64,000 nucleotides of DNA from the NCBI GenBank assembly GCA_036555485.1, contig DATBLG010000005.1:902-64901 (forward strand). The letters run 5' to 3'. The position numbers were made by a program, and so were the translations under genes. Shown here piece by piece: positions 2,749 through 57,424 of the stretch (its first letter is position 1; each line of letters opens with the position of its first letter). The notes below the pieces were generated by a model, which was not told where the DNA came from, ran no database searches, and saw only the letters and a list, made by a program, of their open reading frames with translations. The DNA comes from Gemmatimonadales bacterium. Lineage in GTDB: Bacteria; Gemmatimonadota; Gemmatimonadetes; Gemmatimonadales; GWC2-71-9.

Positions 2749-5700
2749 CTAGCGTCTCCGGATTGTAAACGCCTGCAGCGAGTCGCCGTTGTTGGCTACG
2801 AGCACGGCATTCCCTGCAGGCGTGTTGATCAGGGCCAGGCCGGTGACGTCCAGCGGCGTGAGGAAGCCACTCTCGACTGGCGGCACCGGCGTGAAATGCC
2901 CGTGGCCGTCCCCCTTCAGCCAGAGGCCGTTCCCCGCATCGGCCCTGGGGGTGTTCGGCTCCGCGTCGTACAGGTTTCCCGCCACGATCAGATCGAGATT
3001 CCCGTCCGCGTCCACGTCATGCGCGATGATCCCTCTGATCGGGGAGAGTTGCGCCAGATTGGGCAACGGCGACGACGTGAAGGTCCCGTCGCCATTGTTT
3101 TGCAGATAGACACTGGCGAAGGTGTCCGCCTGATAGTGGACCGCCTGCCGCAATTGGGAGGCGCTGAACAGTTGGTGTATGGAAGCCGAGGCAAACGATG
3201 CGTAGGTCGGGAATCGCAACGGCAGCGTATAGATCGCCTTCCCCAGCCTCGCCAACCCGAACAAGGGATACTCGGTGCCGTCGATCTCCTGGGTGAGTAC
3301 GACATCCGTAGTCTGGTTGCCCGTGAAATCGAGCGCATAGACTCCGAATTTGCTGGCCGGTGACGTCGTGTACGTATGGTTCAGCCCCAGATTGCCGGCC
3401 ACCAGGTCCGGATGGCCATCGTGGTTGAAATCCCCCGCGGCGAGACTGAACCACCACCCCCGGGTCGCCGGCAGGCCCAACGATGCCGTCACGTCCCGCA
3501 GTCGCGTGCCCTCATTGCGATAGAACTGCAGCGGCATCCATTCCCCCGCCGTCACCAGATCCAGGCGCCCGTCGGCGTCAAAATCGATCCAGACCGCTGC
3601 CGTCACCATGCCCCCGGGGCGCATCAATTCCGGGGCGACCGCTTCGGTCACGTCCGTGAACCGGCCCCCATCATTCCGGAGCAGGTAGCTGCGGGTGGGA
3701 AAGGGATAGTTTCTGGGGACCAGTCGGCCACCGACGAACAGATCCAATCGGCCATCGCCGCTAAAGTCGCCAGCCGCGACACTCGCGGTGCTGGTGAGCA
3801 TGGGTGGCAGCGCCTGGGTGTCTCTCGCGAACCGGCCGCCTCCCTGATTGACATAGAGCCGGTCCTGCAACAAACGCGACACCGGTGAGTGGTGATACCC
3901 GCCGCTCGTCACATACAGGTCTTGTCGGCCGTCGCCGTCGGCATCGAAGAACAGGGCTCCCCAATCTTCGTACTCCTTGTCGGCCACCCAGGGTTGCCCG
4001 CGCGTGGATTCAACGAACCGGCCGTCCGCGCGCTGCTGAAACAGCCTTCCCGGCTCGCCTGCCCCCCCCCCGCCCCCAATGAACACGTCCCCGAGCCCAT
4101 CGCTGTCCACATCTCCCACCGCGAGCGGCGCGCCGTGGCTGGATGGCTCGTATGGCAGGAGGGGTTGCACGCTGTAGTCGATGTGCCCCGCTTGCCGGTG
4201 CTTGTACGGTAGCGCTCGGCGGGCATCCGACTGCTGGAACAAGAGGTGTCGGGTTCCAGGTGTCAGGTGCCAGGGACTACACCCTGACACCTGACACCCG
4301 ACACCTGACTCCTCACGAGCCGCATCTTCCTGTCGTACGGTCAACAATTGATCTACCGGCAAGTCAGTCAGTATCTGGGAGCGTCCATCCGGCCAGATCA
4401 CCTCCAGGGTGTCCACGCGCTTCGCGGGCCCCAATCCGAAGTGCGCCCGGTCATCCATGGTGGACAGGTACCCACGGTAGGGGGACTGGTAAAGGAATTG
4501 CCGTTGCCCCCCTGCCCGGAGGATCAGCGTCGCCCCGATCCCTCGTGGGTTGGTCGTGTTCCCCTGCAGCCGGATCTGCAGATAGTGATGCAGGTCGTCC
4601 GCGGGTTGAACGTTTTCATAGATCGAAGCGGGAGCATCGATGTTGTTGATGACGAGATCGAGCTTGCCGTCGTTATTGAGATCGGCGTAGGCGGCGCCGT
4701 AGCCAAACCCCGGTTGGTCCATTCCCCAGGATTTCGTTCTGTCCGTGAATGTCAGGTCCCCGTTGTTCTGGAACAGGTAGTTCGACAGGACGCGACCAGG
4801 CAATTGCTGCAGCAGCTCCAGTCCTCGGCGGTTCGCCGCGACCGTATCTCGCTCCCGGCGCAGCCCGAACATGGTCGTTTGGTAGTCGAACTCATTGACG
4901 GCTTTGGGATAGCCGTTGGTGATGAGAATATCCTTGAACCCATCGTTGTCGAGATCGCCGAACAGGGCGCTCCAGCTCCAGTCGGTGTAGGCGACGCCCG
5001 CCAGCCGGCTCACCTCACTGAAGAGGACATCGCCGTCAGGCGTAACGCCGTTGCTCAGCTGCAGCGTGTTCAAGTCAAAGTCCTGGCGAAACCCCCGAGT
5101 GCGGATATCCTCCACTCCGCCGAGGGAAGCGGCTCCACTCATCCGTTTTCGTCCGCTCAGGGCCTCCGGCATCATGTCGCTTTGCAGGATGTCGGGCCAG
5201 CCGTCATTGTTGAAATCGGCGATGTCAACGCCCATGCCGGCGAGACTCGTATGCTTGAGCCAGCGGGCCGCCTTGTCGGTGAACGTGCCGTTTCCGTTGT
5301 TGACATACAGGACGTCGTTGGGCGTGTCGTCGTTGGAGACGTAGATATCGGGCCACCCGTCCCCGTTGATGTCGCTGACGACGACGCCGAGTCCATACCC
5401 GACCTGCCGCAAGATCCCGGCTTCCCGGGAGACGTTGGTAAACGACCCGTCGCCGTTGTTGCGATAGAGCTGGTTGTAACTGCCGGAGCCCTGACTGCGG
5501 ATGCCCGCCGGGTGCATGGTCGCCACGCCACGCGCAAAATCCTCAGGCGAATTGCTGAGCAGATAGAGGTCGAGGTCGCCGTCCCGATCGTAGTCCAGAA
5601 ACGCGGCGTGCGTGGTGAAGCCGGTGTCCGCGATCCCGTATCGGGACGCGGCTTCGGTGAACGTGCGGTCCCGGTTATTGAGGAACAACAGGTTGGCCCG

Positions 5701-17205: not shown

Positions 17206-18692
17206 GCCGCCGTCTCGCGCGCACGCTGCTCGTCGCGGCGGTCGCGCTGGTTTCGGCCGCGCATGTCGGCAGCCCCGACACCGTCTTTCAGGGCTCCGCC
17301 GGTCCCTACGACGTACGCGTAATTGTCCGGCCCCCCGGGATCGTGCCCGGACTCGCCGAGATCTCGGTGCGCGTCCTCTCCGGTGAGGGCGTGCGTTCGG
17401 TCGCGGTACTGCCACTACGCGGCGGCCGCCCCACCGCCCTCGAGCCGCCGCCCGACAGCGCGAAACCCGTGCCGGGTGATGCGCGGTTGTACAGCGCACA
17501 ACTGTGGCTGATGGAGAGCGGTGCCTACAGTATCCGCGTGGACGTCGCGGGCACGGCCGGCGCCGGGAGCGTCATCGTCCCGGTGAACTCGATCGCGACG
17601 CGGCGCCTCGGATTCGATACTCCCCTCGCCGCTGGGCTGCTCGGACTCGGGCTGTTGCTGTTCATCGGCGCCCTGACGATCGTCGGTGCCGCCGTGCGGG
17701 AGAGCGTACTGTCGCCCGGCGAGGAGCCGGATACGGCGCGCCGGCGCCGTTCATGGTGGGTACGGGTCGCGGCGGTTGGGCTGCTCGGCCTCGGCGTGTA
17801 CGGCGGCAAACTCTGGTGGGACGGCGCGGATGCCAGCCATGCGCAGAGCCTCTACCAACCGATGCAGGTGACGACGACCGTCGCCGAACAGAATAGCGCA
17901 TCAACCCTGCGCATCGCCATCACCGACTCCGAATGGCTCGGACGACAATACTCCCCGCTCATCCCGGATCACGGCAAGCTGATGCACCTGTTTCTGGTGC
18001 GACAGGACCTCGGGACGTTGGCCCACCTCCACCCTCTGATGCGCGATTCCAGCACGTTCGAGGCGGCGCTTCCCCCTCTCGCCCCGGGCAACTACCGCCT
18101 GTACGCCGACGTGGTGCACGAGAGCGGGTTCACGCAGACGCTGCTCGATTCGGTGACCATTCCAGCCGCGGTGACGAGGTGGCGACCGTCCGATCCCGAC
18201 GATTCGTGGTGGAGTAGTCCTCAGTCGTCAGCCGTCAGTAGTCAGCAGACTGTGCAGCTGGAAGATGGGGCAGCGATGGTCTGGGTACGGGATTCCACGA
18301 CGCTGTTCGCCGGACGCGATGTGGAGCTCAAGTTTGCGGTAACGGGGCGCGATGGCCGGCCGGCTGCGCTCGAGCCCTACATGGGCATGATGAGTCACGC
18401 CGTGGTCACGCGCGAAGACGGCAGCGTGTTCGTGCACCTGCATCCCGCCGGCACGATCGCGATGGCATCGCAGCTCGTCTATGCGTTGCGAGTGCCGGAA
18501 GACACCGTCCGCGGCCGGCTCGGCGCGAGAATCACCGCCGCCGAGGGTCAGGCAATGCAGATGGGACCGATGCCGGGGGGAGTCGTGTCATTCCCGTACG
18601 CGTTCCCCAAGCCAGGACTCTATCGAGTCTGGGTGCAGGTCAAGCGGGGAGGGCAGATCCTCACCGGACGGTTCGACGCGGATGTGCGATGA
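17202..18692 (+). CDS. Signal-peptide protein with central transmembrane helices and two C-terminal H-x-H-P repeat domains (possibly metal-binding), unknown function
   Basis: The ATG at 17202 forms an ATGA overlap with the upstream stop. The N-terminus is MSRRLARTLLVAAVALVSAAHV. Motifs HGKLMHLFLV...LAHLHP and MMSHAVVT...VFVHLHPAG occur in the C-terminal part. The track shows this gene only as the 3-prime part of the artefactual 842-aa ORF 16164..18692. Confidence 0.7.
   Translation: MSRRLARTLLVAAVALVSAAHVGSPDTVFQGSAGPYDVRVIVRPPGIVPGLAEISVRVLSGEGVRSVAVLPLRGGRPTALEPPPDSAKPVPGDARLYSAQLWLMESGAYSIRVDVAGTAGAGSVIVPVNSIATRRLGFDTPLAAGLLGLGLLLFIGALTIVGAAVRESVLSPGEEPDTARRRRSWWVRVAAVGLLGLGVYGGKLWWDGADASHAQSLYQPMQVTTTVAEQNSASTLRIAITDSEWLGRQYSPLIPDHGKLMHLFLVRQDLGTLAHLHPLMRDSSTFEAALPPLAPGNYRLYADVVHESGFTQTLLDSVTIPAAVTRWRPSDPDDSWWSSPQSSAVSSQQTVQLEDGAAMVWVRDSTTLFAGRDVELKFAVTGRDGRPAALEPYMGMMSHAVVTREDGSVFVHLHPAGTIAMASQLVYALRVPEDTVRGRLGARITAAEGQAMQMGPMPGGVVSFPYAFPKPGLYRVWVQVKRGGQILTGRFDADVR
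18216..18250. repeat. Single-arm heptamer array (5 x AGYNNTC, TCAG core) inside the 17202..18692 CDS
   Basis: agtcctc agtcgtc agccgtc agtagtc agcagac, translated as the Ser/Gln-rich stretch SSPQSSAVSSQQT. Confidence 0.6.
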
Positions 18693-18696
18693 GGAG

Positions 18697-18779
18697 CCGT
18701 CAGTCATCAGTCTTCAGACGTCAGTCTTGACACTCCCAGATCATCTGACAACGGATGACTGATGACTGATGACTGACGG
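18697..18779. repeat. Heptamer-armed long hairpin (TCAGTCA / TGACTGA units) just after the operon stop codon
   Basis: The left arm ccgtcagtcatcagtc (18697-18712) is the perfect complement of gactgatgactgacgg (18764-18779). Further imperfect heptamers continue inward. The element starts 5 nt after the TGA at 18690-18692. Confidence 0.8.
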
Positions 18780-27702: not shown

Positions 27703-28380
27703 TCACTGGTCCAGACTGGTCGCCCACGCGACGATACCGTCGGCCAGCTCCGCCCGCACGTCCTCCGCGGTCCGCCCCGAGCTTTTCCGAACGTTGAATG
27801 AGTGGTCCCCACCCTTCACGACGTGCAACAGCGCGAGCTTGCCGAGCGGCTGGAGGACCTGCCGGAGCAGGATCAGCTCGGCAAACTCGTCCCGATCCCC
27901 CTGGAGGAACAGCATCGGAATCCGCACCCCCGCGAGATGGTCGGCCCGAGTGACGCCGGGTTTTCCTGGTGGATGGAGCGGAAACCCGAGGAACGCGAGG
28001 CCAACGACTCCCGGCAGGGGCTCCTGGGACTGCGCTGTGGATGTCATGCGCCCGCCAAAAGATTTCCCACCAGCGATGAGGGGCAGCCCCGGTGCAGCGC
28101 GGGCGGCGGCCGTTACGGCCGCGCGCACACCGGCGCATGCGATCGCCGGTGGGTCTGGACGGCGCTGCTGCTTCTCCATGTAGAGGAACTGATAGCGCAG
28201 GGTCGCCACACCCCGCTCGGCGAGTCCCACGCTAATCTGCTCGAGAAACGGGTGCCGCATGCCCGCGCCAGCGCCGTGCGCGAGGACGTACAGCACCCGG
28301 GCGTCGGCGGGCAACACGAGCAACCCCGACACGTCGCCGATGTCACCCACGGGGAATCGGAGCTCCTTCGACTGCGACAT
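27703..28380 (-). CDS. Alpha/beta-fold hydrolase (COG3571 / KANL3-Tex30-like)
   Basis: 225 aa with a nucleophile elbow (GGKSFGG) and a dienelactone-hydrolase-like layout. Confidence 0.75.
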   Translation of the reverse strand: MSQSKELRFPVGDIGDVSGLLVLPADARVLYVLAHGAGAGMRHPFLEQISVGLAERGVATLRYQFLYMEKQQRRPDPPAIACAGVRAAVTAAARAAPGLPLIAGGKSFGGRMTSTAQSQEPLPGVVGLAFLGFPLHPPGKPGVTRADHLAGVRIPMLFLQGDRDEFAELILLRQVLQPLGKLALLHVVKGGDHSFNVRKSSGRTAEDVRAELADGIVAWATSLDQ

Positions 28381-28413
28381 CAGTCGTCAGTCATCAGTCG
28401 CCAGCCGTCAGCA
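28379..28413. repeat. Single-arm heptamer array (5 x RYCAGYM) filling the ligD-to-hydrolase spacer
   Basis: atcagtc gtcagtc atcagtc gccagcc gtcagca. It occupies essentially the whole gap between the ligD stop (28416-28418) and the hydrolase ATG (28378-28380). Confidence 0.7.
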
Positions 28414-34591: not shown

Positions 34592-34617
34592 GGTGCGTGG
34601 TGGGTGGTGCGTGGTCC
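34592..34617. repeat. Heptamer array GGTGNGT x3-4 in the convergent intergenic spacer
   Basis: ggtgcgt ggtgggt ggtgcgt ggtcc lies between the peroxiredoxin stop (34582-34584) and the tlpA stop (34618-34620). It has partial complementarity to gccacccgccgcacc at 34625-34639. Confidence 0.5.
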
Positions 34618-49428: not shown

Positions 49429-50619
49429 GTGAGCGCGCACCTCGCGGAATGGCTCAGCCTCGCGCTGCGCTGGATCCACATCATCACCGGCGTGTCGTGG
49501 ATCGGCACATCATTCTATTTCAACTGGCTGAATGGACGGATTCGACCGCCGGACGCCCCCGAGCCCGGCGTCACCGGCGAGCTCTGGTCGGTGCATGGCG
49601 GCGGGTTTTACCGCGTCGTGAAATACAGCGTCGCGCCCGAGCGCCTGCCGCGCACGCTGCACTGGTTCAAGTGGGAGGCGTACGCCACCTGGCTTTCCGG
49701 CGCGTCGCTGCTCGTGCTCCTGTACTATTTCGGCGCGCGGGTGAACCTGCTCGATCCCGGCGTCTCCTCGATCGCCCCCGGCGCGGCGGTCGCCGTCAGC
49801 ATCGGCACGATCCTCGTCGCCTGGCTCGTCTACGATGTGCTGTGTCGCTCGCCGGCGGGGTATCGGCCCGTTGTGCTGGCGACGCTAGGCCTGGTACTCG
49901 TCACGGCGCTTGGCTATGGCCTGGCGCGCGTATTCAGTGCTCGCGCCGCCTATTTGCACGTCGGTGTCGCCCTCGGCACGATCATGGCGGCGAACGTGTT
50001 CCGGGTGATCATCCCGGCGCAACGGGAAATGGTGGATGCGTTGGCGGCGGGGGGCGAGCCGGACGCGGCACGCGGCCGTCAGGCGGCGCTGCGTTCGTTG
50101 CACAACAACTATCTGACCCTACCCGTGCTGTTCGTGATGGTGAGCGGCCACTACCCCGCGACGTACGGCAGCGCCTGGGGCTGGGCCATCCTCGCGGGAT
50201 TGTTCGTCGTCGGCGTCCTGACGCGCCACTGGTTCAATCTGCGCAACGCCGGGATTCGCAACGCCTGGCTGCTCCCCGCGGCTGTGGTGGGACTCATCGC
50301 GTTGGCGCTCGTGACGGCGCCGCGCTCCAGCGGTATGGCCTCACCGGACGGCGCCGTGTCGTCGTTCGCCGACGTGCGTATCATCATCGCGCGGCGCTGC
50401 GCTCCGTGTCACTCCGCAGCGCCCACCTTCCCGGGCGTCACTGCGCCACCGGCCGGGGTGGCGTTTGACACGCCGGAGCAGATTCGCGTCCGCGCCTCGC
50501 GCATCGCCGAGCGGGTGGTCGCCCGGCAGACGATGCCACTCGGCAACGTCACGGGGATCACTCCGGAGGAGCGGGATCTTCTCGGGCGGTGGATTCAAGC
50601 GGGGGCTCCGCTCCGGTGA
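49429..50619 (+). CDS. puuD: Membrane-bound urate hydroxylase PuuD (cytochrome c-containing)
   Basis: 396 aa. The N-terminus WIHIITGVSWIGTSFYFNWL is typical of PuuD. It has several TM helices and a C-terminal CAPCH heme c motif. Confidence 0.8.
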   Translation: MSAHLAEWLSLALRWIHIITGVSWIGTSFYFNWLNGRIRPPDAPEPGVTGELWSVHGGGFYRVVKYSVAPERLPRTLHWFKWEAYATWLSGASLLVLLYYFGARVNLLDPGVSSIAPGAAVAVSIGTILVAWLVYDVLCRSPAGYRPVVLATLGLVLVTALGYGLARVFSARAAYLHVGVALGTIMAANVFRVIIPAQREMVDALAAGGEPDAARGRQAALRSLHNNYLTLPVLFVMVSGHYPATYGSAWGWAILAGLFVVGVLTRHWFNLRNAGIRNAWLLPAAVVGLIALALVTAPRSSGMASPDGAVSSFADVRIIIARRCAPCHSAAPTFPGVTAPPAGVAFDTPEQIRVRASRIAERVVARQTMPLGNVTGITPEERDLLGRWIQAGAPLR

Positions 50620-50640
50620 CCTGCAGCAACAGACTCCCAG

Positions 50641-50942
50641 GGGTGGGCTAACCCCGGGGCCATGCCCCGGGGTTCAGGGATTGGCACACGTATGCCAGGT
50701 CGTGAATTGCCTAGGGTGGGTTAACCCCGGGGCCGTGCCACGGGGTTCAGGGCAAGCACACGTATACCCTGGCCGTGAATTGCCACAGGTGGGTTAAGCC
50801 CGGGGCGTTGCCCCTGGGTTCAGGGAATGTCACACGTGACCCCAGGACGTGAATTGCTGTGGGTGGGTAACCACGGGCTAAGCCCCGGTGTGGGAATGGC
50901 ACACATTGAACCCCGGGCCGTGGGCCCGGGGTTAACCCACCC
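50641..50942. repeat. Tandem array of four units of about 73 bp, each with a GC-rich hairpin; the last unit ends in an inverted copy of the unit start
   Basis: Unit starts (gggtggg, with aggtggg at the third) are at 50641, 50714, 50787 and 50861. Each unit contains a hairpin such as aaccccgggg-ccatg-ccccggggtt (50650-50674), followed by cacacgt...gtgaattgc. The array closes with gttaacccaccc (50931-50942), the reverse complement of the unit start. Confidence 0.85.
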
Positions 50943-50959
50943 GGACAACGTCGACGAGC

Positions 50960-51350
50960 TCAGCCACCGCCGCGGCCACCTCCTTCCCGAATGCCGATCC
51001 GAATCGCCAGTGCACCGACGGGTCCCATTATGGCTGCGCCCACTATCGGGGTCCATGGCAACTGGGTCCCCCATTCGGCGGGCGGAAAGAGTGTTAAGAC
51101 AGTGAGGAAAGCGTATGGGAGTATTGCGACGAATCCCACCAGCATCGCCCCGGCAGCGTGCCGGCACAGTGGCAACAGGAGCCCCACGATTCCGCCTGCA
51201 ACAATTCCACCCTAGGTAGCCACCGATTAGGGCGATATAGGAAGTGTTGTACTCCTGCAGTAGTTCTGGCCCTCTGACGAGAACGAGCAGCGTCGCCAAT
51301 ACCGAAATGACTAGTGCGAACCAGAGACCCCAAGTGAGTCCCGTTTTCAT
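50960..51350 (-). pseudogene. Small 4-TM membrane protein gene interrupted by a 1-nt frameshift (or assembly error), in a low-GC patch
   Basis: From ATG 51350 the translation is MKTGLTWGLWFALVISVLATLLVL...YIALIGGYL. It continues sensibly only after a frame change near 51209-51216, as GGIVAGGIVGLLLPL...AIMGPVGALAIRIGIREGGGRGGG*, with the stop at 50960. The total length of 391 nt is not a multiple of 3. Confidence 0.55.
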
Positions 51351-51408
51351 GTTTGATCCGAGTGAGCCCATTGGACCCAAGCCCCTCTTTTCCTCCAAAC
51401 GGACTAGT

Positions 51409-52368
51409 TCACACCTCAGCCACGTCGAACAACACCTTCATCGTCCCCGGCCGCTGCGCATGGTCGAACGCATCGAGCGCTCGCTCCAGTGGGTAATGCG
51501 CCTGCACCAGCGGTAGCACGTCCACCTTCTGTTCAGCAAGCACGGCGAGTGCCTTTGGAAACGGGCCGCAGCGCGACCCGATGATCGTGAGCTCGTGCAC
51601 CACGATCGCGGATGCGTCGAGCGTCAACTGGTCGGCGTACGTGCTCTTCATCACGAGCGTGCCGCGGGGACGCAGCGCCCGCTGGGCGAGGCCGAAGCCG
51701 AGGTGATTGCCGGTGCATTCGACCGCGATGTCGAATGAGCCCGCGGGGATCGTCTCAGCCGCGGTTGACGCAATCCCGCGCTCGGTGAGCAGGGTGAGCT
51801 TTGGTCCGTGGCGGCCGACCACCAGGAGGTCGCAGTCGGTGAGCGCCAGCGTTTGCGCCACGAGCTGCCCCAGCTTTCCATCCCCGACGACGAGCACCCG
51901 GTCCCCGGGCGCGATGTGGACCTGCTCCTGGATCTCGAGTGCCGCGGCGAGCGGCTCGGTAAAAACCGCCGCGTCCTCGGATACACCGTCCGGAACCAGA
52001 TGGAGGTTTTGGAGCGGCAGCGTGAGATACTCGGCGAACGCGCCGTGCCGGTTCACGATGCCAAGTACCGTGCGACGCTCGCAGTGCGTGCGTCGGCCGG
52101 CTCGGCAGGGACCGCATGCGCCGCACGTCGCGTTGATCTCACCCACCACGCGCCGGCCCATCAGCGCGTCCGGACCGCGCTCCACCACGCCGACGAACTC
52201 GTGGCCCAGCACCCCGGCGTAGGGATAGTAGCCGCGCGCCAACTCGACGTCGGTGTTGCAGATGCCGGCACGGAGCACGCGCACCAGCGCTTCGTCCGCC
52301 GGTGGCTCCGGCACCGGCACGCTATGGCGGAGCCGGAGCTGGCCTCCCTCGAGCCAGACGGCCTTCAC
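51409..52368 (-). CDS. Zinc-dependent medium-chain alcohol dehydrogenase family protein
   Basis: 319 aa matching MDR motifs (GICNTDVE, GHEFVG, CGACGPC structural-zinc loop, VVGDGKLG). Confidence 0.85.
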   Translation of the reverse strand: MKAVWLEGGQLRLRHSVPVPEPPADEALVRVLRAGICNTDVELARGYYPYAGVLGHEFVGVVERGPDALMGRRVVGEINATCGACGPCRAGRRTHCERRTVLGIVNRHGAFAEYLTLPLQNLHLVPDGVSEDAAVFTEPLAAALEIQEQVHIAPGDRVLVVGDGKLGQLVAQTLALTDCDLLVVGRHGPKLTLLTERGIASTAAETIPAGSFDIAVECTGNHLGFGLAQRALRPRGTLVMKSTYADQLTLDASAIVVHELTIIGSRCGPFPKALAVLAEQKVDVLPLVQAHYPLERALDAFDHAQRPGTMKVLFDVAEV

Positions 52369-53186
52369 GCCTGGAGTTCGGGCAAGGCGAAGAAGAGCAC
52401 GCGCGCCATCACGCGCTTGCGGTATTCAGCCGTGGAGCGGATGTCGTCGATCGGCGTGACGTCCTGCTCGATCGCCGGCAACAGGTCTTCCGGCGCGCGG
52501 GGCGCCGGCCCGTCGGCGAGCCGGCGTTCGAGTGCGGGACAGCGGCGAATCGTCGGCGCCATGCTCGCCGCGACGACGCGCCACCCGGCCGACGAGCGGG
52601 TGACGGCGAGACCGATCTTGGCGATGGCCTGAGCGCGTCGCGGGCCGATTTTCTCGAACACCTGAGCGGCATAGGGCCGGCGGGGCACACGGATCGCGAC
52701 CACGAGCTGGTCCGCGGCCCGTCGCATCTGCTTGTAGCCCGTGTAGAAATCGGCGAGCGGCACCTCTTCGCGGCCGCGGCGGGATTCGAGCACGACTACC
52801 GCATCGTAGGCCATCAGCACCGGCACGCCGTCGGCCGCGGGCGAGGCGTTCACGATGTTGCCGGCCCACGTGCCGCGCGTCTGGATCTGGACCGCGCCCA
52901 CCTGCCGCGCCGCGCGGACGAGCAGCGGCAGCTCGCGCGCCGCGCGACGGTCCGTGACCACGTCCCAATAGGTCGCGAGTCCTCCCAGGACGAGCTCCGC
53001 GTCGGTCCATTGCAAGCCCTTCAACTCGGCGACGCGGGAGATGTCGACATACGTCCGGTCGTGTTCCGCGGACCGTACAGGCCAGTGTACCAGCAGGTCG
53101 GTCCCACCGGCGATCGGGATGGCCTCCGGATGGTCGGCCAGCATGGCCAGAGCCTCCGCCTTGCCCTGAGGCTGGAGCAGGTTCAC
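52365..53186 (-). CDS. Molybdenum hydroxylase FAD-binding (medium, CoxM/XdhB-like) subunit
   Basis: ORF 52365..53249. A GTG at 53186 forms a GTGA overlap with the small-subunit stop. It has the FAD-binding motif PIAGGTDLLV and a CO-dehydrogenase-flavoprotein C-terminal pattern. Confidence 0.8.
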   Translation of the reverse strand: MNLLQPQGKAEALAMLADHPEAIPIAGGTDLLVHWPVRSAEHDRTYVDISRVAELKGLQWTDAELVLGGLATYWDVVTDRRAARELPLLVRAARQVGAVQIQTRGTWAGNIVNASPAADGVPVLMAYDAVVVLESRRGREEVPLADFYTGYKQMRRAADQLVVAIRVPRRPYAAQVFEKIGPRRAQAIAKIGLAVTRSSAGWRVVAASMAPTIRRCPALERRLADGPAPRAPEDLLPAIEQDVTPIDDIRSTAEYRKRVMARVLFFALPELQA

Positions 53187-53629
53187 GATCGCGCCTCGAG
53201 CGCCGCCGTGATCCCGTCCACGATGCCGTCGTAGCCCGTACAGCGGCACAGGTTACCGGCCATGAGCTCCCGGATCGTATGAGTGGTGAGCAGGTCGCGG
53301 TGCGACTGGATCCAGCAGGCCGTCATGGCGACGCCGGGAGTGCAAGCGCCGCACTGCGTCGCTCCGTGGACGAGCAGCGACTCGAGCGCGGCCGGATCGA
53401 GCGATTCGACCGTTTCCACGCGTGCTTCGCGCACCTGGTACGCCGGCACGAGACAGGAGTTGACCGGCAGCCCGTCCAGGTACACGGTGCACGCGCCGCA
53501 CTCCCCTTCCCCGCACCCTTCTTTCGTTCCCGTAAGGCCGAGCCGGTAGCGCAAAGTGTCGAGCAAGCGTTCGGTGGGGTCGACAGAGACCGTGACTGGT
53601 GCCCCGTTTAGAGTAAAAGTGAACGTCAA
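53183..53629 (-). CDS. Molybdenum hydroxylase 2x[2Fe-2S] small subunit
   Basis: It has the cluster motifs CGEGECGACTV and CGACTPG...CRCTGY. A TTG at 53629 gives (M)TFTFTLNGAPVTVSVDP, the usual N-terminus of this family. The ATGs further upstream (53710, 53731) lie inside the repeat element. Confidence 0.75.
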   Translation of the reverse strand: MTFTFTLNGAPVTVSVDPTERLLDTLRYRLGLTGTKEGCGEGECGACTVYLDGLPVNSCLVPAYQVREARVETVESLDPAALESLLVHGATQCGACTPGVAMTACWIQSHRDLLTTHTIRELMAGNLCRCTGYDGIVDGITAALEARS

Positions 53630-53733
53630 TGCGGAGTGCGGAATGCGGAATGCGGAATTGGCCGTTCCGGGCGTCGCATCGCGCTTCGACTCTCCCTTGT
53701 CATTCCGCATTCCGCATTCCCCATTCCGCATTC
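53628..53733. repeat. Heptamer-armed hairpin (GCGGAAT / CATTCCG units) between the large and small subunit genes
   Basis: The left arm gcggagt gcggaat gcggaat gcggaat and the right arm cattccg cattccg cattccc cattccg form a 19-bp perfect stem (53640-53658 with 53702-53720) around a 43-nt loop. The large-subunit stop codon (53700-53702) lies at the start of the right arm. Confidence 0.85.
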
Positions 53734-55913
53734 TCGATAAGCTCCATCAGCCGCTCCGGCGTCAACGGAATCACGCACGGGTCCGCCCCCGTCGCGGCGG
53801 CGACGGCGTTGAGCACGGCAGGAGCCGGGCCGTCCATCGGCAGTTCACCCAGTCCCTTGGCTCCCTGCGCCCCGAACGCGTACGGGTTCTCGAGAAACGC
53901 CACGCGGATTGATGGCAGGTCGTCGCTCGTGGGAATGATGTAGTTGGTGAGCTGGGCGTTGGCCATCGCGCCGTCTTTCCAGCGGCATTCTTCGAGCAAG
54001 GCCCAGCCGATCGCCTGCGCCACGCCGCCCTGCACCTGCCCGCGTGCCAGCAGCTCGTTCAGCACCTTGCCGATTTCCTGCACGGCGACGATGTCGAGTA
54101 CCCGGACGTCGTAGGTGCGGAGATCGACCTCGACCTCGGCGACGTACGCCGCCCAGGCGTACGTGCCGTAAGCATCGCCCCGATAGGCAACGTCGTCCCA
54201 GACGATCCCCGGTGGCCGCTCGTACAGCGCCTCGCCGAGCAGCGTTTCGCCCGGGTGCTTCTTGTACCAGCGGACCAGCGCCGCCCGCACCGCGTCACCC
54301 TTGATGCTGCGGTCGAACCCGAGCTGCTTGCGGAGGTCGTCGCACGCGCGCTCCACCAGGCCCCCCACCACCATCGACGTCCGCGACGCGACGGTGGGTC
54401 CGCTGTTGGGAACCCGCGCCGTGTCGGCGGTGGCGATAATCACGTCCGACGGGCGCAGGCCGAGGCGCGCGGCCGCGAGCTCCGTGAACACCGTGAGCGT
54501 GCCCTGTCCCATCTCGATGTTGGCGCTGCGCACCTCGATCCGTCCGTCCGGCAGTCCCGCCACGTGCACCCGGGACGCGAGCATCACTTCCCCGCTCCCG
54601 GTGAATCCGGCGCCGTGATGGAACGTGGCGAGGCCCATGCCACGGCGTTTCGTGGCGTTGGTCGCGTTGAAACCGGCGTGGGCGGTTCGCTTCGCGTCGT
54701 AGTCCGCCAGCGTGAGCGCCTGGTCGAGAATCGCGAGGCGGTCTGTCCCGTCGGCGATCACCTGGCCGGTGGCGGTGGACTGGCCATCGGCGAGCAAGTT
54801 GCGGCGTCGCAGCTCGGCCGGATCCAACCCGAGACAGGCCGCGATCCGGTGCATGTGGCGTTCGTTCGCGAAGTGGGTCTGCGGCGCGCCGAAGCCGCGG
54901 AACGCGCCGAACGGCACGGCGTTGGTGAACATCGCCCGGCCGTCGATGCGTACGTGCTCGCAATGGTACGGTCCGGCGGCGTGGATGATCCCGCGCGATA
55001 GCACCACAGGAGAGAGCGTTACATAGGCCCCGCCATCCATCACGACTTCGATGTCCTGCGCGAGGAGCCGGCCGTCGCGCGTGACACCGGTCCGGTGACG
55101 CACGAGGGACGGGTGCCGCTTCGTAGTCGCGGCCATATCCTCGCCCCGATCGTACACCACCTTGACGGGCTTGCCGCTCTGCAGCGTGAGCAGCGCGGCA
55201 TGGAGCGCGATCGTCGACGGGTACTCCTCCTTCCCGCCGAACCCGCCGCCCGTGGGCGTCTGGATGACGCGCACCTGCTGCGCGTCGCGGCCGAGGGCGT
55301 GCAGCAACGCCTTCAGGACGTAGTACGGACACTGCATCGAGCCGCGCAGCACCAGGACGCCACCGTCCAGCTCGGCGATCATCCCCTGCGGCTCGAGGTA
55401 CACATGCTCCTGGGCGCCGGTCTCGTAGGTGCCCTCGACCACCAGCGGTGCCTTTGCGAGCGCGCGTTCGACGTTGCCTTTAGAGATAACCAGGTGCTTC
55501 AGTACGTTGTCCGCGCCGTATTGGATCTGATCGGGACGGGGGGCGATGCGGAAATCGAGCACCGCGGGCTCGGGGGCGATCTCGATCGTCACCGCTCGTA
55601 CGGCCCGCCGCAGTGCAGCCCGGTCCGGGTGGGCCAACAGCAGCACCGGTTCGTGGACGTGCCGCACGATGTTCGCGGCGAGCACCGGCTGGTCGGGCTC
55701 GATCAGCGCGATCTCGTTCGGCCCCGGCAGATCGCGATGGTCCACGATGGTGTACTGGGACCAGTCGATCCCCGCCCCGAACCGCACGGCGGTAATCCGC
55801 CCCCGTGGGGCCGGGCTGCGGACCGTCATCCCCCAGAGGAACGAGTCGAGCGGGAGGTCGTCGACGTAGCGCTCGCGGCCGGTGAGCTTGGCGAGGCCCT
55901 CGAGTCGGTGCAT
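53700..55913 (-). CDS. Molybdopterin-binding large subunit of a xanthine dehydrogenase / aldehyde oxidase-family hydroxylase
   Basis: ORF 53700..55952. The ATG at 55913 gives MHRLEGLAKLTGRERYVDD. It has typical Mo-cofactor domains (GGGFGGKE, AQIEMGQGT-like NIEMGQGT). The last 10 aa (NAEWGMRNAE) are encoded by the repeat element. Confidence 0.85.
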   Translation of the reverse strand: MHRLEGLAKLTGRERYVDDLPLDSFLWGMTVRSPAPRGRITAVRFGAGIDWSQYTIVDHRDLPGPNEIALIEPDQPVLAANIVRHVHEPVLLLAHPDRAALRRAVRAVTIEIAPEPAVLDFRIAPRPDQIQYGADNVLKHLVISKGNVERALAKAPLVVEGTYETGAQEHVYLEPQGMIAELDGGVLVLRGSMQCPYYVLKALLHALGRDAQQVRVIQTPTGGGFGGKEEYPSTIALHAALLTLQSGKPVKVVYDRGEDMAATTKRHPSLVRHRTGVTRDGRLLAQDIEVVMDGGAYVTLSPVVLSRGIIHAAGPYHCEHVRIDGRAMFTNAVPFGAFRGFGAPQTHFANERHMHRIAACLGLDPAELRRRNLLADGQSTATGQVIADGTDRLAILDQALTLADYDAKRTAHAGFNATNATKRRGMGLATFHHGAGFTGSGEVMLASRVHVAGLPDGRIEVRSANIEMGQGTLTVFTELAAARLGLRPSDVIIATADTARVPNSGPTVASRTSMVVGGLVERACDDLRKQLGFDRSIKGDAVRAALVRWYKKHPGETLLGEALYERPPGIVWDDVAYRGDAYGTYAWAAYVAEVEVDLRTYDVRVLDIVAVQEIGKVLNELLARGQVQGGVAQAIGWALLEECRWKDGAMANAQLTNYIIPTSDDLPSIRVAFLENPYAFGAQGAKGLGELPMDGPAPAVLNAVAAATGADPCVIPLTPERLMELIENAEWGMRNAE

Positions 55914-55993
55914 AGTGAGGCAATAGTGGGGGAGCGAAGGGGAGGTCCGCAACTGGATATCTTTCCGCCAGCGCCAACTTCGAGGAGCCGATC

Positions 55994-57424
55994 ATGACAC
56001 GCGCCAGGACCGCATCTCGCCCCGCGCGCAGGCCGACCGCTTCGCGCGCCGCCACCATCCGCTCGATCAACCCGACCACCGGTGACGTGCTGGAAACGTT
56101 CACTGAGATCGGGAAGACGGCGCTCGAGGGCCTGCTGGCGGGCGTTGAGCGGGCCTTCCAGGATTGGCGTCGCCGCCCGCTCGCGGACCGCGTCGCGCTG
56201 CTGCGCGGCGCGGCAAAGATCCTGCGAGACGGCAAGACAAAATACGGACGGGTGATGGCGCTCGAGATGGGCAAGCCGCTGCCGCAGGGCGAGGCGGAGG
56301 CGGAGAAGTGCGCGCTGGCGTGCGAATACTACGCCGATCATGCCGAGAGCTTTCTCGCGCGACAACCGCGTGACGTGGAGGGTACGCAGAGCTACGTCCG
56401 CTTCGATCCCTTGGGCCCGGTGCTTGCGGTGATGCCGTGGAATTTCCCGTTTTGGCAGGTGTTCCGGTTCGCCGCCCCGGCGCTGGTGTCAGGCAACGTC
56501 GGCCTCCTGAAACATGCGTCCAACGTGACGCGCTGCGCGTTGTTGATCGAGGGCGTGTTTCGCGAGGCCGGGTTTCCCGAGGACGTGTTCCGCACCCTCG
56601 TGCTGCGCAGTGCAGGGGTGGCCGCCGTAATCGCAGACCCCAGGGTCCGCGCCGTGACGCTCACGGGATCCGAGTCGGCCGGCAGCCAAGTGGCCGAAAC
56701 AGCAGGACGGCACCTTAAGAAGACAGTGCTCGAGCTGGGCGGCAGCGACGCGTTCATCGTGCTCGAGGACGCCGACCTTCCCCGGGCTGCCAAGACCGCG
56801 GCCGACGCCCGACTGATCAACAGTGGACAGAGCTGCATCGCGGCTAAACGGTTCATCGTGGTGCAGGCCGTGGCCAACCGGTTCGAGTCGCTGTTCGTGG
56901 AGGAAATGCGCTCGCGCCGCATGGGAGATCCGCTCGTCCCCGGATCGCAGGTTGGTCCGCAGGCCCGGACCGAGCTGCGTGACGAGCTGCACCACCAGGT
57001 GCAGGTGTCCGTGCGGCGTGGCGCGAAGCTCGCATTGGGCGGCGTCAAGCCAGCGGGGCCCGGCGCCTTCTACCCGCCGACCGTGCTCAGCGCCGTGAAG
57101 CCCGGCATGCCGGCGTTCGATGAAGAAGTGTTCGGACCGGTTGCCGCGGTGATTCGGGCGCGCGATGCGGCCGACGCGGTGCGCCTCGCCAACGCCTCGC
57201 CGTACGGACTCGGCGCCGCCGTGTGGACCGAGGACCAGGCACGCGGCGATCGCATTGCCGGGGAGCTCGACGTGGGGTGCGTGTTCGTGAACGGGATGGT
57301 CAAATCCGATCCACGCCTGCCGTTTGGCGGCGTCAAGCGCTCGGGCTACGGACGCGAGCTGTCCGAGTACGGCCTGCGGGAGTTCCTGAACGTCAAAAGC
57401 GTTTGCGTGGCTGCCTCGTCATGA
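55994..57424 (+). CDS. NAD(P)-dependent aldehyde dehydrogenase, succinate-semialdehyde dehydrogenase-like
   Basis: 476 aa matching ALDH motifs (SINPTTGD, ELGGSDAFIV, GQSCIAAKR, the catalytic Cys, and PFGGVKRSGYGRE). Confidence 0.85.
   Translation: MTRARTASRPARRPTASRAATIRSINPTTGDVLETFTEIGKTALEGLLAGVERAFQDWRRRPLADRVALLRGAAKILRDGKTKYGRVMALEMGKPLPQGEAEAEKCALACEYYADHAESFLARQPRDVEGTQSYVRFDPLGPVLAVMPWNFPFWQVFRFAAPALVSGNVGLLKHASNVTRCALLIEGVFREAGFPEDVFRTLVLRSAGVAAVIADPRVRAVTLTGSESAGSQVAETAGRHLKKTVLELGGSDAFIVLEDADLPRAAKTAADARLINSGQSCIAAKRFIVVQAVANRFESLFVEEMRSRRMGDPLVPGSQVGPQARTELRDELHHQVQVSVRRGAKLALGGVKPAGPGAFYPPTVLSAVKPGMPAFDEEVFGPVAAVIRARDAADAVRLANASPYGLGAAVWTEDQARGDRIAGELDVGCVFVNGMVKSDPRLPFGGVKRSGYGRELSEYGLREFLNVKSVCVAASS

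What the first reader, a model, noticed from the sequence alone, without database searches (positions are those of the whole stretch)
53628..53733. Hairpin element inside an enzyme operon that supplies the stop codon of the large subunit and abuts the start of the small subunit
The GCGGAAT/CATTCCG element (19-bp perfect stem, 43-nt loop) fills the whole junction between the large and small subunit genes. The large-subunit frame runs into the right arm, picks up 10 element-encoded residues (NAEWGMRNAE) and terminates at a TGA inside the element. The family-typical N-terminus of the small subunit (TFTFTLNGAPVTV) begins at a TTG right at the edge of the left arm. All other junctions in this operon are 4-nt overlaps, so the element probably inserted into a formerly coupled junction. 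It must now influence coupling, relative subunit expression or mRNA processing. Gene finders will tend to call spurious MRNAECGMRN-type peptides from it.
Basis: seen in the sequence. Interest (0 to 1): 0.6.

Follow-up and report, generated by a model that had tools for sequence, protein, structure and literature searches.

The report
Translated heptamer-repeat hairpin at gene junction
A 106-base hairpin whose two arms are runs of a 7-base unit sits where two subunit genes of a molybdenum enzyme meet in a soil Gemmatimonadaceae genome; it is one copy of a fast-changing repeat family, and both genes most likely read through it, so it is coding sequence and not a spacer.

Summary
Window 53628-53733 is a hairpin with a perfect 19-bp stem, extendable to about 29 bp, and a 43-nt loop. 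The RNA fold is -62.6 kcal/mol (z = -5). Each arm is 4.4-4.7 tandem copies of AATGCGG/CATTCCG. The large subunit (minus strand) takes its last 10 codons and its TGA (53702-53700) from it.

The element is not unique. The same 74%-complete genome holds 11 such paired arrays with unrelated loops, plus other heptamer families.

Three close relatives carry this same element. In them the TTG (53629) is ATC or TTC. The in-frame ATG 8 nt before the large-subunit stop (53710) is kept. The loop keeps its length and frame. The whole hairpin therefore most likely lies inside two reading frames that overlap by 11 nt.

The inference that it entered a formerly coupled junction holds. A relative with 94% identical DNA has a plain ATGA overlap. 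Across Gemmatimonadales this junction is a hot spot: 32 of 45 heptamer arrays in 623 kb lie there, with different units in sister lineages. In 11 two-armed orthologs the A/GTGA overlap sits in the loop.

I read it as a tolerated passenger repeat that incidentally ties small-subunit translation to the large subunit.

The parts
53702..53733 (-). 5' arm of the hairpin on the mRNA: about 4.6 tandem heptamers (AATGCGG, one AATGGGG variant). It is read in two frames: the last 10 codons of the large subunit, and probably the first codons of the small subunit.
   Evidence: TRF; fold; translations
53659..53701 (-). 43-nt loop. Its first bases complete the large-subunit TGA (53702-53700). It is open in the small-subunit frame (DKGESKRDATPGTA). 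It starts with a purine-rich AAGGGAGAG resembling the 'TGAAGGG' start of other copies' loops.
   Evidence: length and frame kept in L120 and L121
53628..53658 (-). 3' arm of the hairpin on the mRNA (CCGCATT x4, one CCGCACT variant). In the small-subunit frame it reads NSAFRIPHSAL.
53700..55913 (-). Large molybdopterin-binding subunit (Ald_Xan_dh_C, MoCoBD_1, MoCoBD_2). The start is probably ATG 55913 (MHRLEGL...). The stop TGA at 53702-53700 is supplied by the element.
   Evidence: Pfam; the 737-aa form from 55913 is the one on record
53708..53710 (-). Most likely start codon (ATG) of the small subunit. It lies 8 nt upstream of the large-subunit stop (an 11-nt overlap) and inside the perfect 19-bp stem.
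   Evidence: in frame; conserved in L120, L121 and L122, whose called proteins (175 aa) start there
53729..53731 (-). Alternative in-frame ATG for the small subunit (32-nt overlap). It is the start used in the public gene call (182 aa).
53627..53629 (-). It is in frame and at the foot of the stem, has no Shine-Dalgarno sequence, and is not conserved (ATC in L121/L122, TTC in L120).
53626..53679 (-). Out-of-frame 17-codon mini-ORF from a loop ATG. It ends at a TGA that overlaps the TTG. I considered it as a relay to the TTG and rejected it, because the ATG is absent in L120.
53183..53710 (-). Small [2Fe-2S] subunit (Fer2, Fer2_2). Homology to solved small subunits begins at residue about 35 of the 182-aa ORF (TFTFTLNG). 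About 28 residues before that are element-encoded.
   Evidence: Pfam; PDB search
52365..53186 (-). FAD-binding medium subunit. Its start is a GTGA overlap with the small-subunit stop.
51409..52368 (-). Zinc-type alcohol dehydrogenase, the last gene of the operon. Its start is a GTGA overlap with the medium subunit.

Best explanation
The element is one copy of a dispersed family of paired heptamer-array hairpins in Gemmatimonadales. Each copy has two opposed runs of about 4 tandem 7-nt units around a variable loop.

It arose or landed recently on what had been an ATGA-type 4-nt stop/start overlap between the large and small subunit genes of a xanthine-dehydrogenase-family enzyme.

It did not create an untranslated spacer. 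The whole hairpin lies inside overlapping reading frames:
- The large subunit reads through the 5' arm, gaining 10 junk residues, and stops at the first loop bases.
- The small subunit most likely starts at ATG 53710 inside the 5' arm (possibly at 53731). It reads through the loop and 3' arm, gaining about 28 junk N-terminal residues before the conserved TFTFTLNG.

The start codon is buried in a 19-bp perfect stem and has no usable Shine-Dalgarno sequence. Initiation is therefore expected to depend on ribosomes that have just melted the stem while finishing the large subunit (termination-reinitiation over an 11-nt overlap).

I regard the hairpin as a tolerated passenger of a fast DNA-level repeat process, not as an evolved regulator. 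The strict coupling is a consequence, not its purpose.

Shown: anatomy, family membership, absence in the nearest relative, frame and ATG conservation, non-conservation of the TTG, and the hot spot. Inferred: which codon initiates, the reinitiation mechanism, and neutrality.
For: Family:
- The genome has 113 heptamer arrays against 14 arrays of period 8 and 7 of period 9. They form 23 inverted pairs. Eleven pairs use AATGCGG, with non-homologous loops.
- All 15 relatives' genomes tested carry GCRGANY arrays, with 7 to 282 matches each.

Recent arrival on a coupled junction:
- L001 (94% nt identity in the large subunit) has ...LLQE-ATGA-CC with no element.

Start inside the element:
- L120, L121 and L122 carry the same element. 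The TTG is ATC or TTC in them. The ATG 8 nt before the stop is kept in 3 of 3. The loop has the same length.
- The 2 of 2 loop substitutions between the window and L121 are synonymous in the small-subunit frame.

Precedent in orthologs:
- In 11 of 18 two-armed junction elements (L004-L009, L013, L017, L018, L024, L071) the large-subunit TGA overlaps an ATG or GTG in the loop, and the small-subunit frame runs through the 3' arm.

Second case in this genome:
- At C28:11960-12066 a whole hairpin is in frame after codon 2 of a gene that in G001 starts at a GTGA overlap.

Passenger status:
- Presence is patchy between sister lineages.
- At least four junction states occur within one cluster of large subunits at 90% or more identity.
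- None of 7 element sites compared is conserved in sequence between G000 and G001, whose flanks are 78-94% identical.
- Decayed or one-armed remnants exist: L002, L012, L020, L021, L033.

Transcription:
- Soil metatranscriptome contigs cover 53494-53660.
Against: - There is no direct evidence for any start codon: no proteomics, ribosome profiling or 5'-end data.
- Heptamer arrays without stop triplets are open in all frames by construction. The open frame through the arms is therefore weak evidence on its own. The loop is only 14 codons.
- The three relatives are close, so frame conservation has low statistical power. The window-versus-L120 loop changes are mostly non-synonymous.
- ATG 53710 has GGGGA immediately adjacent, which is poor Shine-Dalgarno spacing.
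- The extreme concentration of hairpin elements of several kinds at this one junction could mean a hairpin there is selected for. The neighbouring small/medium junction is a plain -4 overlap in 56 of 70 loci. That would argue against neutrality.
Confidence: 0.6

Rival explanations
1. The small subunit starts at TTG 53629 at the foot of the stem. The loop and 3' arm are an untranslated spacer, the old coupling is broken, and the hairpin now sets relative subunit expression.
For: The TTG is in frame. It would give M-TFTFTLNG, which matches where solved small subunits begin (residues 2-11 align to query residues 34-39). In L022, L028 and L039 the element is wholly intergenic, and the small subunit has its own Shine-Dalgarno and ATG after the 3' arm.
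Against: The TTG is replaced by ATC or TTC in the three closest carriers of the same element. In L121 (read directly) the next in-frame start lies beyond the conserved N-terminal strand. There is no Shine-Dalgarno sequence, the start codon is weak, its first two bases are paired in the predicted fold, and it lies 73 nt from the large-subunit stop.
Confidence: 0.12
2. The hairpin is kept at this junction because it is useful. It could act as a translational gate fixing a 1:1 large:small ratio, as an mRNA stabiliser, or as an RNase III site. Selection then explains why so many lineages have some hairpin exactly here.
For: 32 of 45 heptamer arrays in 623 kb of orthologous loci lie at this junction. 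REP-like GTAG palindromes (L023, L026, L032) and another multi-hairpin element (L064, L124) occupy the same spot. The small/medium junction stays a plain overlap. In 11 orthologs the stop/start overlap sits in the apical loop, often after a purine-rich stretch. Even element-free junctions (L016, L040) fold into short stems with the A/GTGA in the loop.
Against: Many close relatives lack any element (L001, L003, L014, L016, L019, L027, L034, L052, L065, L070). In the GCAGAAT clade the arms have drifted out of complementarity (z about -3) while the coding extension persists. Mismatches in the window's arms are not compensated. RNase III cleavage in a stem that is coding on both sides would make non-stop and start-less mRNAs. 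There is no terminator-like U-tract and no Rfam match.
Confidence: 0.18
3. Relay model. An ATG in the exposed loop (53679), preceded by AAGGGAGAG, starts a 17-codon mini-ORF. That ORF melts the 3' arm and ends at a TGA overlapping the TTG, handing ribosomes to the small subunit.
For: The mini-ORF and the TTGA overlap exist in the window, and the loop ATG is also present in L121.
Against: The loop ATG is absent in L120 (AAC), and the TTG is absent in L120 and L121. Any loop ATG in that frame would read to that TGA, because the arm has no stop triplets.
Confidence: 0.03
4. A REP/REPIN-type element moved by a RAYT (Y1) transposase.
For: It is a dispersed hairpin repeat sitting after stop codons in operons. 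Some sites stay occupied across species while the sequence differs, as reported for enterobacterial REPs (my own knowledge). The genome encodes two Y1_Tnp proteins.
Against: Both Y1_Tnp genes are flanked by other palindromes, none by heptamer arrays. One of them, GGGTTAACCCCGGGGCCATGCCCCGGGG, is also the 73-bp tandem at window 50637-50888. The element has no GTAG foot, and the loops are unrelated between copies.
Confidence: 0.05

Closest known systems
STRR (short tandemly repeated repetitive) heptanucleotide sequences of filamentous cyanobacteria, and TAACTGA heptamer direct repeats of Beggiatoaceae, cyanobacteria and Bacteroidetes (PMC4679880)
   Same: Dispersed tandem arrays of a 7-nt unit, 2-6 copies per array. 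They lie mostly at gene boundaries close to start or stop codons and sometimes overlap the ends of ORFs. Copy number changes in 7-nt steps between strains. Function is unknown.
   Different: Those are described as direct arrays; only one inverted set was found in the Beggiatoa genome (PMC4679880). Here two opposed arrays form a long hairpin. The phylum is Gemmatimonadota and the units differ (AATGCGG and others). The arrays are read through by two overlapping genes.
REP / BIME / REPIN palindromic elements with their RAYT transposases
   Same: Dispersed hairpin-forming repeats between co-directional genes of operons. Intergenic sites can stay occupied while the sequence is lineage-specific.
   Different: The arms are tandem heptamers, the loops are unrelated, and there is no GTAG foot. 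The RAYT-like genes of this genome are flanked by a different palindrome family.
Rickettsia palindromic elements (RPE), inserted in frame into protein-coding genes (own knowledge)
   Same: A palindromic repeat that sits inside open reading frames and is translated as an extra, apparently functionless peptide segment at a tolerant position of the protein.
   Different: RPEs are conserved 100-150-bp sequence families. Here only the heptamer arms are shared. The element straddles a stop/start overlap of two genes instead of lying inside one gene.
Translational coupling by a structure that hides the downstream start until the upstream cistron is translated, for example the RNA phage MS2 coat/replicase pair and the E. 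coli infC-rpmI-rplT operon (own knowledge)
   Same: The downstream start codon lies in a stable stem, and the other strand of that stem is the end of the upstream coding region. Only ribosomes finishing the upstream gene can expose it.
   Different: Those structures are conserved, evolved regulators. This one is a recently acquired copy of a genome-wide repeat, and its effect on coupling is inferred, not measured.

Membership tests
Paired heptamer-array hairpins (STRR-like repeat class) | Each arm is a tandem array of at least 3 copies of a 7-nt unit | tested here: met
   TRF finds 4.4 and 4.7 copies with 91-92% matches
Paired heptamer-array hairpins (STRR-like repeat class) | The two arrays are reverse complements and fold into one long hairpin | tested here: met
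   19-bp perfect stem, about 29 bp in total, -62.6 kcal/mol, z = -5
Paired heptamer-array hairpins (STRR-like repeat class) | Several dispersed copies with the same unit but unrelated loops in the same genome | tested here: met
   11 AATGCGG pairs and 3 ATTGCGG pairs. Loops of 25-68 nt share only short motifs
Paired heptamer-array hairpins (STRR-like repeat class) | Position at or just after a stop codon between co-directional genes | tested here: met
   This copy carries the large-subunit stop. The C15 site has the array starting right after the TGA in 8 species. The C145 and C28 sites are tight stop/start junctions in G001
Cyanobacterial STRR in the strict sense | Cyanobacterial host and the STRR unit sequences | tested here: not met
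   The host is Gemmatimonadaceae and the unit is AATGCGG
REP/REPIN | A cognate RAYT gene flanked by the same repeat | tested here: not met
   Two Y1_Tnp genes were found. Their flanks carry other palindromes and no heptamer arrays
REP/REPIN | Conserved sequence over the whole unit, including the spacer of the doublet | tested here: not met
   The loops do not align
Intrinsic (rho-independent) terminator | A GC-rich stem with a short loop, followed directly by a U-tract | tested here: not met
   The scan does not call it. The loop is 43 nt, and the stem is followed by GACGUUCAC
Any curated RNA family (Rfam 15) | A covariance-model match | tested here: not met
   No match at E <= 1 in 50000-57000
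In-frame translated palindromic insertion (RPE-like behaviour) | The reading frame continues through the element and is kept in relatives | tested here: inconclusive
   The frame, the ATG and the loop length are kept in 3 close relatives, and 11 orthologs read through both arms. No protein-level evidence exists
Structure-gated translational coupling | Downstream initiation depends on upstream translation | not testable with these tools
   It needs reporter fusions or ribosome profiling. Only the geometry is shown: the start codon lies in the stem, with an 11-nt overlap

The most novel reading that the evidence does not exclude
Gemmatimonadales, and probably other phyla, may have an undescribed DNA-level process that writes and rewrites pairs of complementary heptamer arrays at fixed sites. 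Those sites are hairpin-prone and are chiefly stop codons and stop/start overlaps of coupled genes.

The site would persist while the 7-nt unit is swapped even between genomes whose flanks are about 90% identical. Examples: AATGCGG versus GGAAGGG at the C15 site, and GCGGATT versus GCAGAAT in sister orthologs at this junction.

The rewrite would leave the translation restart signal (A/GTGA) in the apical loop, so genes keep working while both arms become coding. Four-helix-bundle PF05635 genes, two of which in this genome sit inside such array pairs, are a candidate partner.
Probability: 0.3. Interest if true: 0.85.

Novelty: new variant of a known kind. Interest (0 to 1): 0.55.

Why it matters
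For annotation: gene finders and curators will misplace the ends of genes next to these elements. Here the true small subunit probably carries about 28 repeat-encoded residues, and the large subunit carries 10. The same is seen in more than 20 orthologs and at a second locus of this genome.

For biology: the data give a clean natural series at one junction of one conserved operon. It runs from a plain overlap, through a one-unit stem and a one-armed array, to a full hairpin with the overlap in the loop, a hairpin with shifted stop and start, and decayed arms. That makes two questions directly testable:
- How do heptamer-array hairpins arise and turn over?
- Does a strong stem around a stop/start overlap enforce translational coupling?

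Heptamer repeats have been known since the cyanobacterial STRRs but remain unexplained. The new points here are site persistence with unit swapping between near-identical genomes, and a preference for coupled junctions.

Tried and rejected
- Assembly error or 1-nt indel explaining the odd frame relation (junction length 106 = 1 mod 3). Rejected: three independent runs give identical sequence, and L120 and L121 have the same loop length.
- Relay mini-ORF from loop ATG 53679. Rejected: the ATG is not conserved.
- Genome-specific heptamer unit, with the junction element matching each genome's dominant unit. Not supported: single genomes mix GCGGAAT, GCGGAGT, GCGGATT and GCGGAAC, even within one array.
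- Loops as conserved element cargo. The loops do not align beyond a weak 'TGAAGGG...TCGA' start and a 'CCAAT' end.
- REP/RAYT association. Rejected.
- Rfam match and terminator scan. Both negative.
- RNA evidence for processing. Logan contigs break at the repeat arms for assembly reasons, so they say nothing about RNA ends. They only show that 53494-53660 occurs in metatranscriptome contigs.
- RNA-level compensatory covariation. I did not pursue it formally, because tandem units make the alignment ambiguous. By eye, the mismatches in the window and in L013 are uncompensated (C.A on the sense strand).
- My first automatic frame calls at the C15 site were wrong and were redone by anchoring on the downstream ITGASG motif.

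Full report
**What is there.** The genes lie on the minus strand. Pfam identifies four of them:
- a 737-750-aa molybdopterin-binding large subunit (53700-55952);
- a [2Fe-2S] small subunit;
- an FAD-binding medium subunit (52365-53186);
- a zinc alcohol dehydrogenase (51409-52368).

The last two junctions are GTGA 4-nt overlaps, read directly from the sequence.

Between the large and small subunits lies the reported element. On the + strand, 53640-53658 pairs perfectly with 53702-53720 (19 bp), leaving a 43-nt loop. The stem continues to 53628/53733 with two mismatches. The mRNA strand folds at -62.6 kcal/mol, z = -5.0 against dinucleotide shuffles. Tandem Repeats Finder shows what the arms are made of: 4.4 copies of AATGCGG and 4.7 copies of CATTCCG.

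The large subunit ends ...LIE-NAEWGMRNAE-TGA, with the TGA at 53702-53700 on the stem/loop boundary. Contigs from three other soil metagenome runs reproduce the element without indels.

**It is one of a family.** The window belongs to a 2.79-Mb, 179-contig, 67% GC genome that is 74% complete. Relatives are Gemmatimonadaceae/Gemmatimonadales MAGs.
- The genome holds 113 heptamer arrays, against 14 of period 8 and 7 of period 9.
- 23 adjacent pairs are inverted. Eleven pairs use AATGCGG, three use ATTGCGG, and others use CAGTTGT, CAGGTGT or GTGCGTG.
- Loops are 25-68 nt long. They do not align beyond a weak purine-rich start and a CCAAT end.
- Arrays of the GCRGANY type occur in all 15 relatives' genomes tested, with 7 to 282 matches. 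Units are mixed within a genome and even within an array.
- Rfam has nothing here, and the element is not terminator-like.

**The junction in relatives.** I fetched 80 orthologous loci and read the DNA between the conserved large-subunit C-terminus and the small-subunit N-terminus.
- The closest relative, L001, is 97% identical in protein and 94% in DNA. It has no element...LLQE, then ATGA, then MTTSL.... L003, L014, L016 and L052 have GTGA overlaps.
- About 21 Gemmatimonadales loci carry heptamer arrays at exactly this junction, with different units (GCGGATT, GCAGAAT, GCGGAAC, GCGGAGT, GCGGAAT).
- Of 45 heptamer arrays in 623 kb of these loci, 32 lie at this junction.
- As a control, the small/medium junction is a plain -4 overlap in 56 of 70 loci. 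In Gemmatimonadota loci it carries no hairpin element.
- On a large-subunit tree the presence is patchy and sisters differ: window versus L001; L013 versus L016; L006 (GCGGATT) versus L007 (GCAGAAT); L020 versus L024.
- Other hairpin types occupy the same spot. L023, L026 and L032 have a GTAG-type palindrome. L064 and L124 have a multi-hairpin element, and L123 has its remnant.
- Within one cluster of large subunits at 90% or more identity I found four junction states.

**Arms are translated in the orthologs.** In 11 of 18 two-armed junction elements the large-subunit TGA overlaps an ATG or GTG (A/GTGA) lying in the loop. Those elements are L004-L009, L013, L017, L018, L024 and L071. The large subunit reads through the 5' arm, and the small subunit reads through the 3' arm. 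These fall into at least five groups with different units and loops.

For an untranslated element, the first in-frame stop would rarely be preceded by A/G-T in the frame of the downstream gene. I estimate roughly 1 in 6 per independent case. This pattern is therefore not chance: these hairpins have been accommodated inside both genes with the 4-nt overlap intact. Heptamer units without stop triplets are open in all three frames, which makes this easy.

**Where the small subunit starts in the window.** The window and L041 differ from that majority, because the large subunit stops at the end of the 5' arm. A loop ATG (53679) is out of frame and opens a 17-codon ORF ending on a TGA that overlaps the TTG.

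The decisive evidence came from the protein cluster of the small subunit. It holds 175-aa members from other metagenomes, whose contigs I fetched. L121/L122 and L120 carry this same element.
- The TTG is ATC in L121/L122 and TTC in L120. In L121 (read directly) the next in-frame start lies beyond the conserved first strand.
- The ATG 8 nt before the stop is conserved in all three.
- The loop has the same length in all.
- The two loop differences between the window and L121 are both synonymous in the small-subunit frame.
- The loop ATG is missing in L120.

Homology to solved small subunits starts only at residue about 35 of the long ORF, so the extra residues are an add-on. I conclude, at about 60%, that the small subunit starts at 53710 (or 53731) and carries about 28 element-encoded residues. 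The public gene call uses 53731. The plus-strand ORFs across the element are not on record.

**How it most likely works.** With the start codon inside the 19-bp perfect stem and no properly spaced Shine-Dalgarno sequence, free 30S initiation should be poor. A ribosome finishing the large subunit occupies and melts the 5' arm. It terminates 8 nt past the ATG and can reinitiate there. Coupling would then be kept, and made obligatory, rather than broken. This step is inferred from geometry only.

I doubt that the hairpin is there for this purpose:
- Close relatives do without it.
- Remnants and one-armed forms are common (L002, L012, L020, L021, L033).
- In the GCAGAAT clade the arms have drifted out of complementarity while the coding extension stays.
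- Mismatches are uncompensated.

The concentration of several kinds of hairpin at this one junction keeps a selective explanation alive (about 18%).

**Turnover elsewhere in the genome.** I compared seven element sites of this genome with G001, whose flanks are 78-94% identical. None is conserved in sequence.
- Three are empty in G001, and all three are tight junctions there: ATGA overlap (large/small junction), stop-4 nt-start (C145) and GTGA overlap (C28).
- One (C70) is an unrelated spacer in G001.
- Three carry an element with another unit. C15 has AATGCGG versus GGAAGGG, C29 has GCGGAAT versus GCGGATT/GCGGATA, and C152 differs as well.

At the C15 site, seven same-genus relatives have arrays with units GCAGAAT, GATTGCG, GGGACGA or GGGGAGT. 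Each array begins right after the upstream TGA. At C28 the whole hairpin is in frame after codon 2 of a signal-peptide protein. This is a second fully translated copy in this genome.

**Comparison with known systems.**
- The arrays resemble cyanobacterial STRRs and the TAACTGA direct repeats (PMC4679880). Those are described as direct arrays of unknown function near start codons.
- The hairpin habit, the operon position and the site persistence resemble REP/REPIN elements. However, the genome's two Y1 (RAYT-like) transposase genes are flanked by a different palindrome.
- In-frame translation resembles Rickettsia palindromic elements.
- Earlier notes of this scan describe the same class in other genomes, and I treated them as leads. 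One lead holds here for two of three genes: PF05635 four-helix-bundle genes sit inside array pairs (C19, heptamers; C105, octamers). Its meaning is open.

**Verdict.** The feature is real and is a new variant of a known kind. Interest is moderate for this single copy. It is higher for what the orthologous series shows about the turnover of the family.

Noticed in passing
window 50637-50888; G000:C81:19571-19909: A 73-bp unit repeated 3.5 times downstream of the operon contains the palindrome GGGTTAACCCCGGGGCCATGCCCCGGGG. The same palindrome flanks a RAYT-like Y1 transposase gene on contig C81 on both sides. This looks like a REP/RAYT system separate from the heptamer hairpins.
   Followed up: partly
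G000:C19:10317-10571 and G000:C105:19633-19944: Two of the genome's three PF05635 (23S rRNA intervening-sequence protein, four-helix bundle) genes sit between inverted tandem arrays. The C19 gene is bracketed by CGGCTAT heptamers and the C105 gene by GGCGTCTN octamers. The third gene (C150) has none.
   Followed up: partly
G000:C28:11960-12066: A complete AATGCGG hairpin (both arms and loop) is in frame after codon 2 of a gene with a signal-peptide-like N-terminus. The ATGA overlap with the upstream gene is kept. In G001 the same gene starts at a GTGA overlap with no element.
   Followed up: yes
G000:C15:16462-16583 and loci L091-L101, L115: At one orthologous site before a ubiX-like gene, eight genomes all have a heptamer hairpin beginning right after the upstream TGA. 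The units differ: AATGCGG, GCAGAAT, GATTGCG, GGGACGA, GGGGAGT and GGAAGGG.
   Followed up: yes
L023, L026, L032 (junction region); L064, L123, L124: Other hairpin elements occupy the same large/small subunit junction. One is a GTAGGGGCGCAGCATGCTGCGCCCCTAC palindrome translated as part of the large-subunit tail. Another is a 142-nt element of three short hairpins, with a remnant in L123.
   Followed up: partly
window 53183-55952 versus L001: DNA identity to the nearest relative drops from 94% in the large subunit to 89% after the junction. The first ~15 residues of the small subunit differ strongly. This suggests a recombination breakpoint at or near the element.
   Followed up: no
window 4244-4313, 18216-18245, 18700-18776, 28380-28411, 34592-34615: Further heptamer arrays of other units lie in the same window (AGGTGCC/CCTGACA, AGTCGTC, TCAGTCA/GATGACT, TCAGTCG, GGTGCGT). 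At least two of these sites form inverted pairs.
   Followed up: no
L078 (contig labelled Isosphaeraceae): This contig carries a Gemmatimonadota-like copy of the operon (68% identity). It has a 114-nt insert with GATGATT-type heptamers at the small/medium subunit junction. It is the only array-bearing insert in the spacer of that junction (L039 has an array in the small-subunit tail).
   Followed up: no
L120:815-905: In one close relative the large-subunit tail has an extra in-frame 30-nt partial duplication of the 5' arm (AATGCGGAATGGGGAA...). This shows arm-length change that keeps the frame.
   Followed up: no
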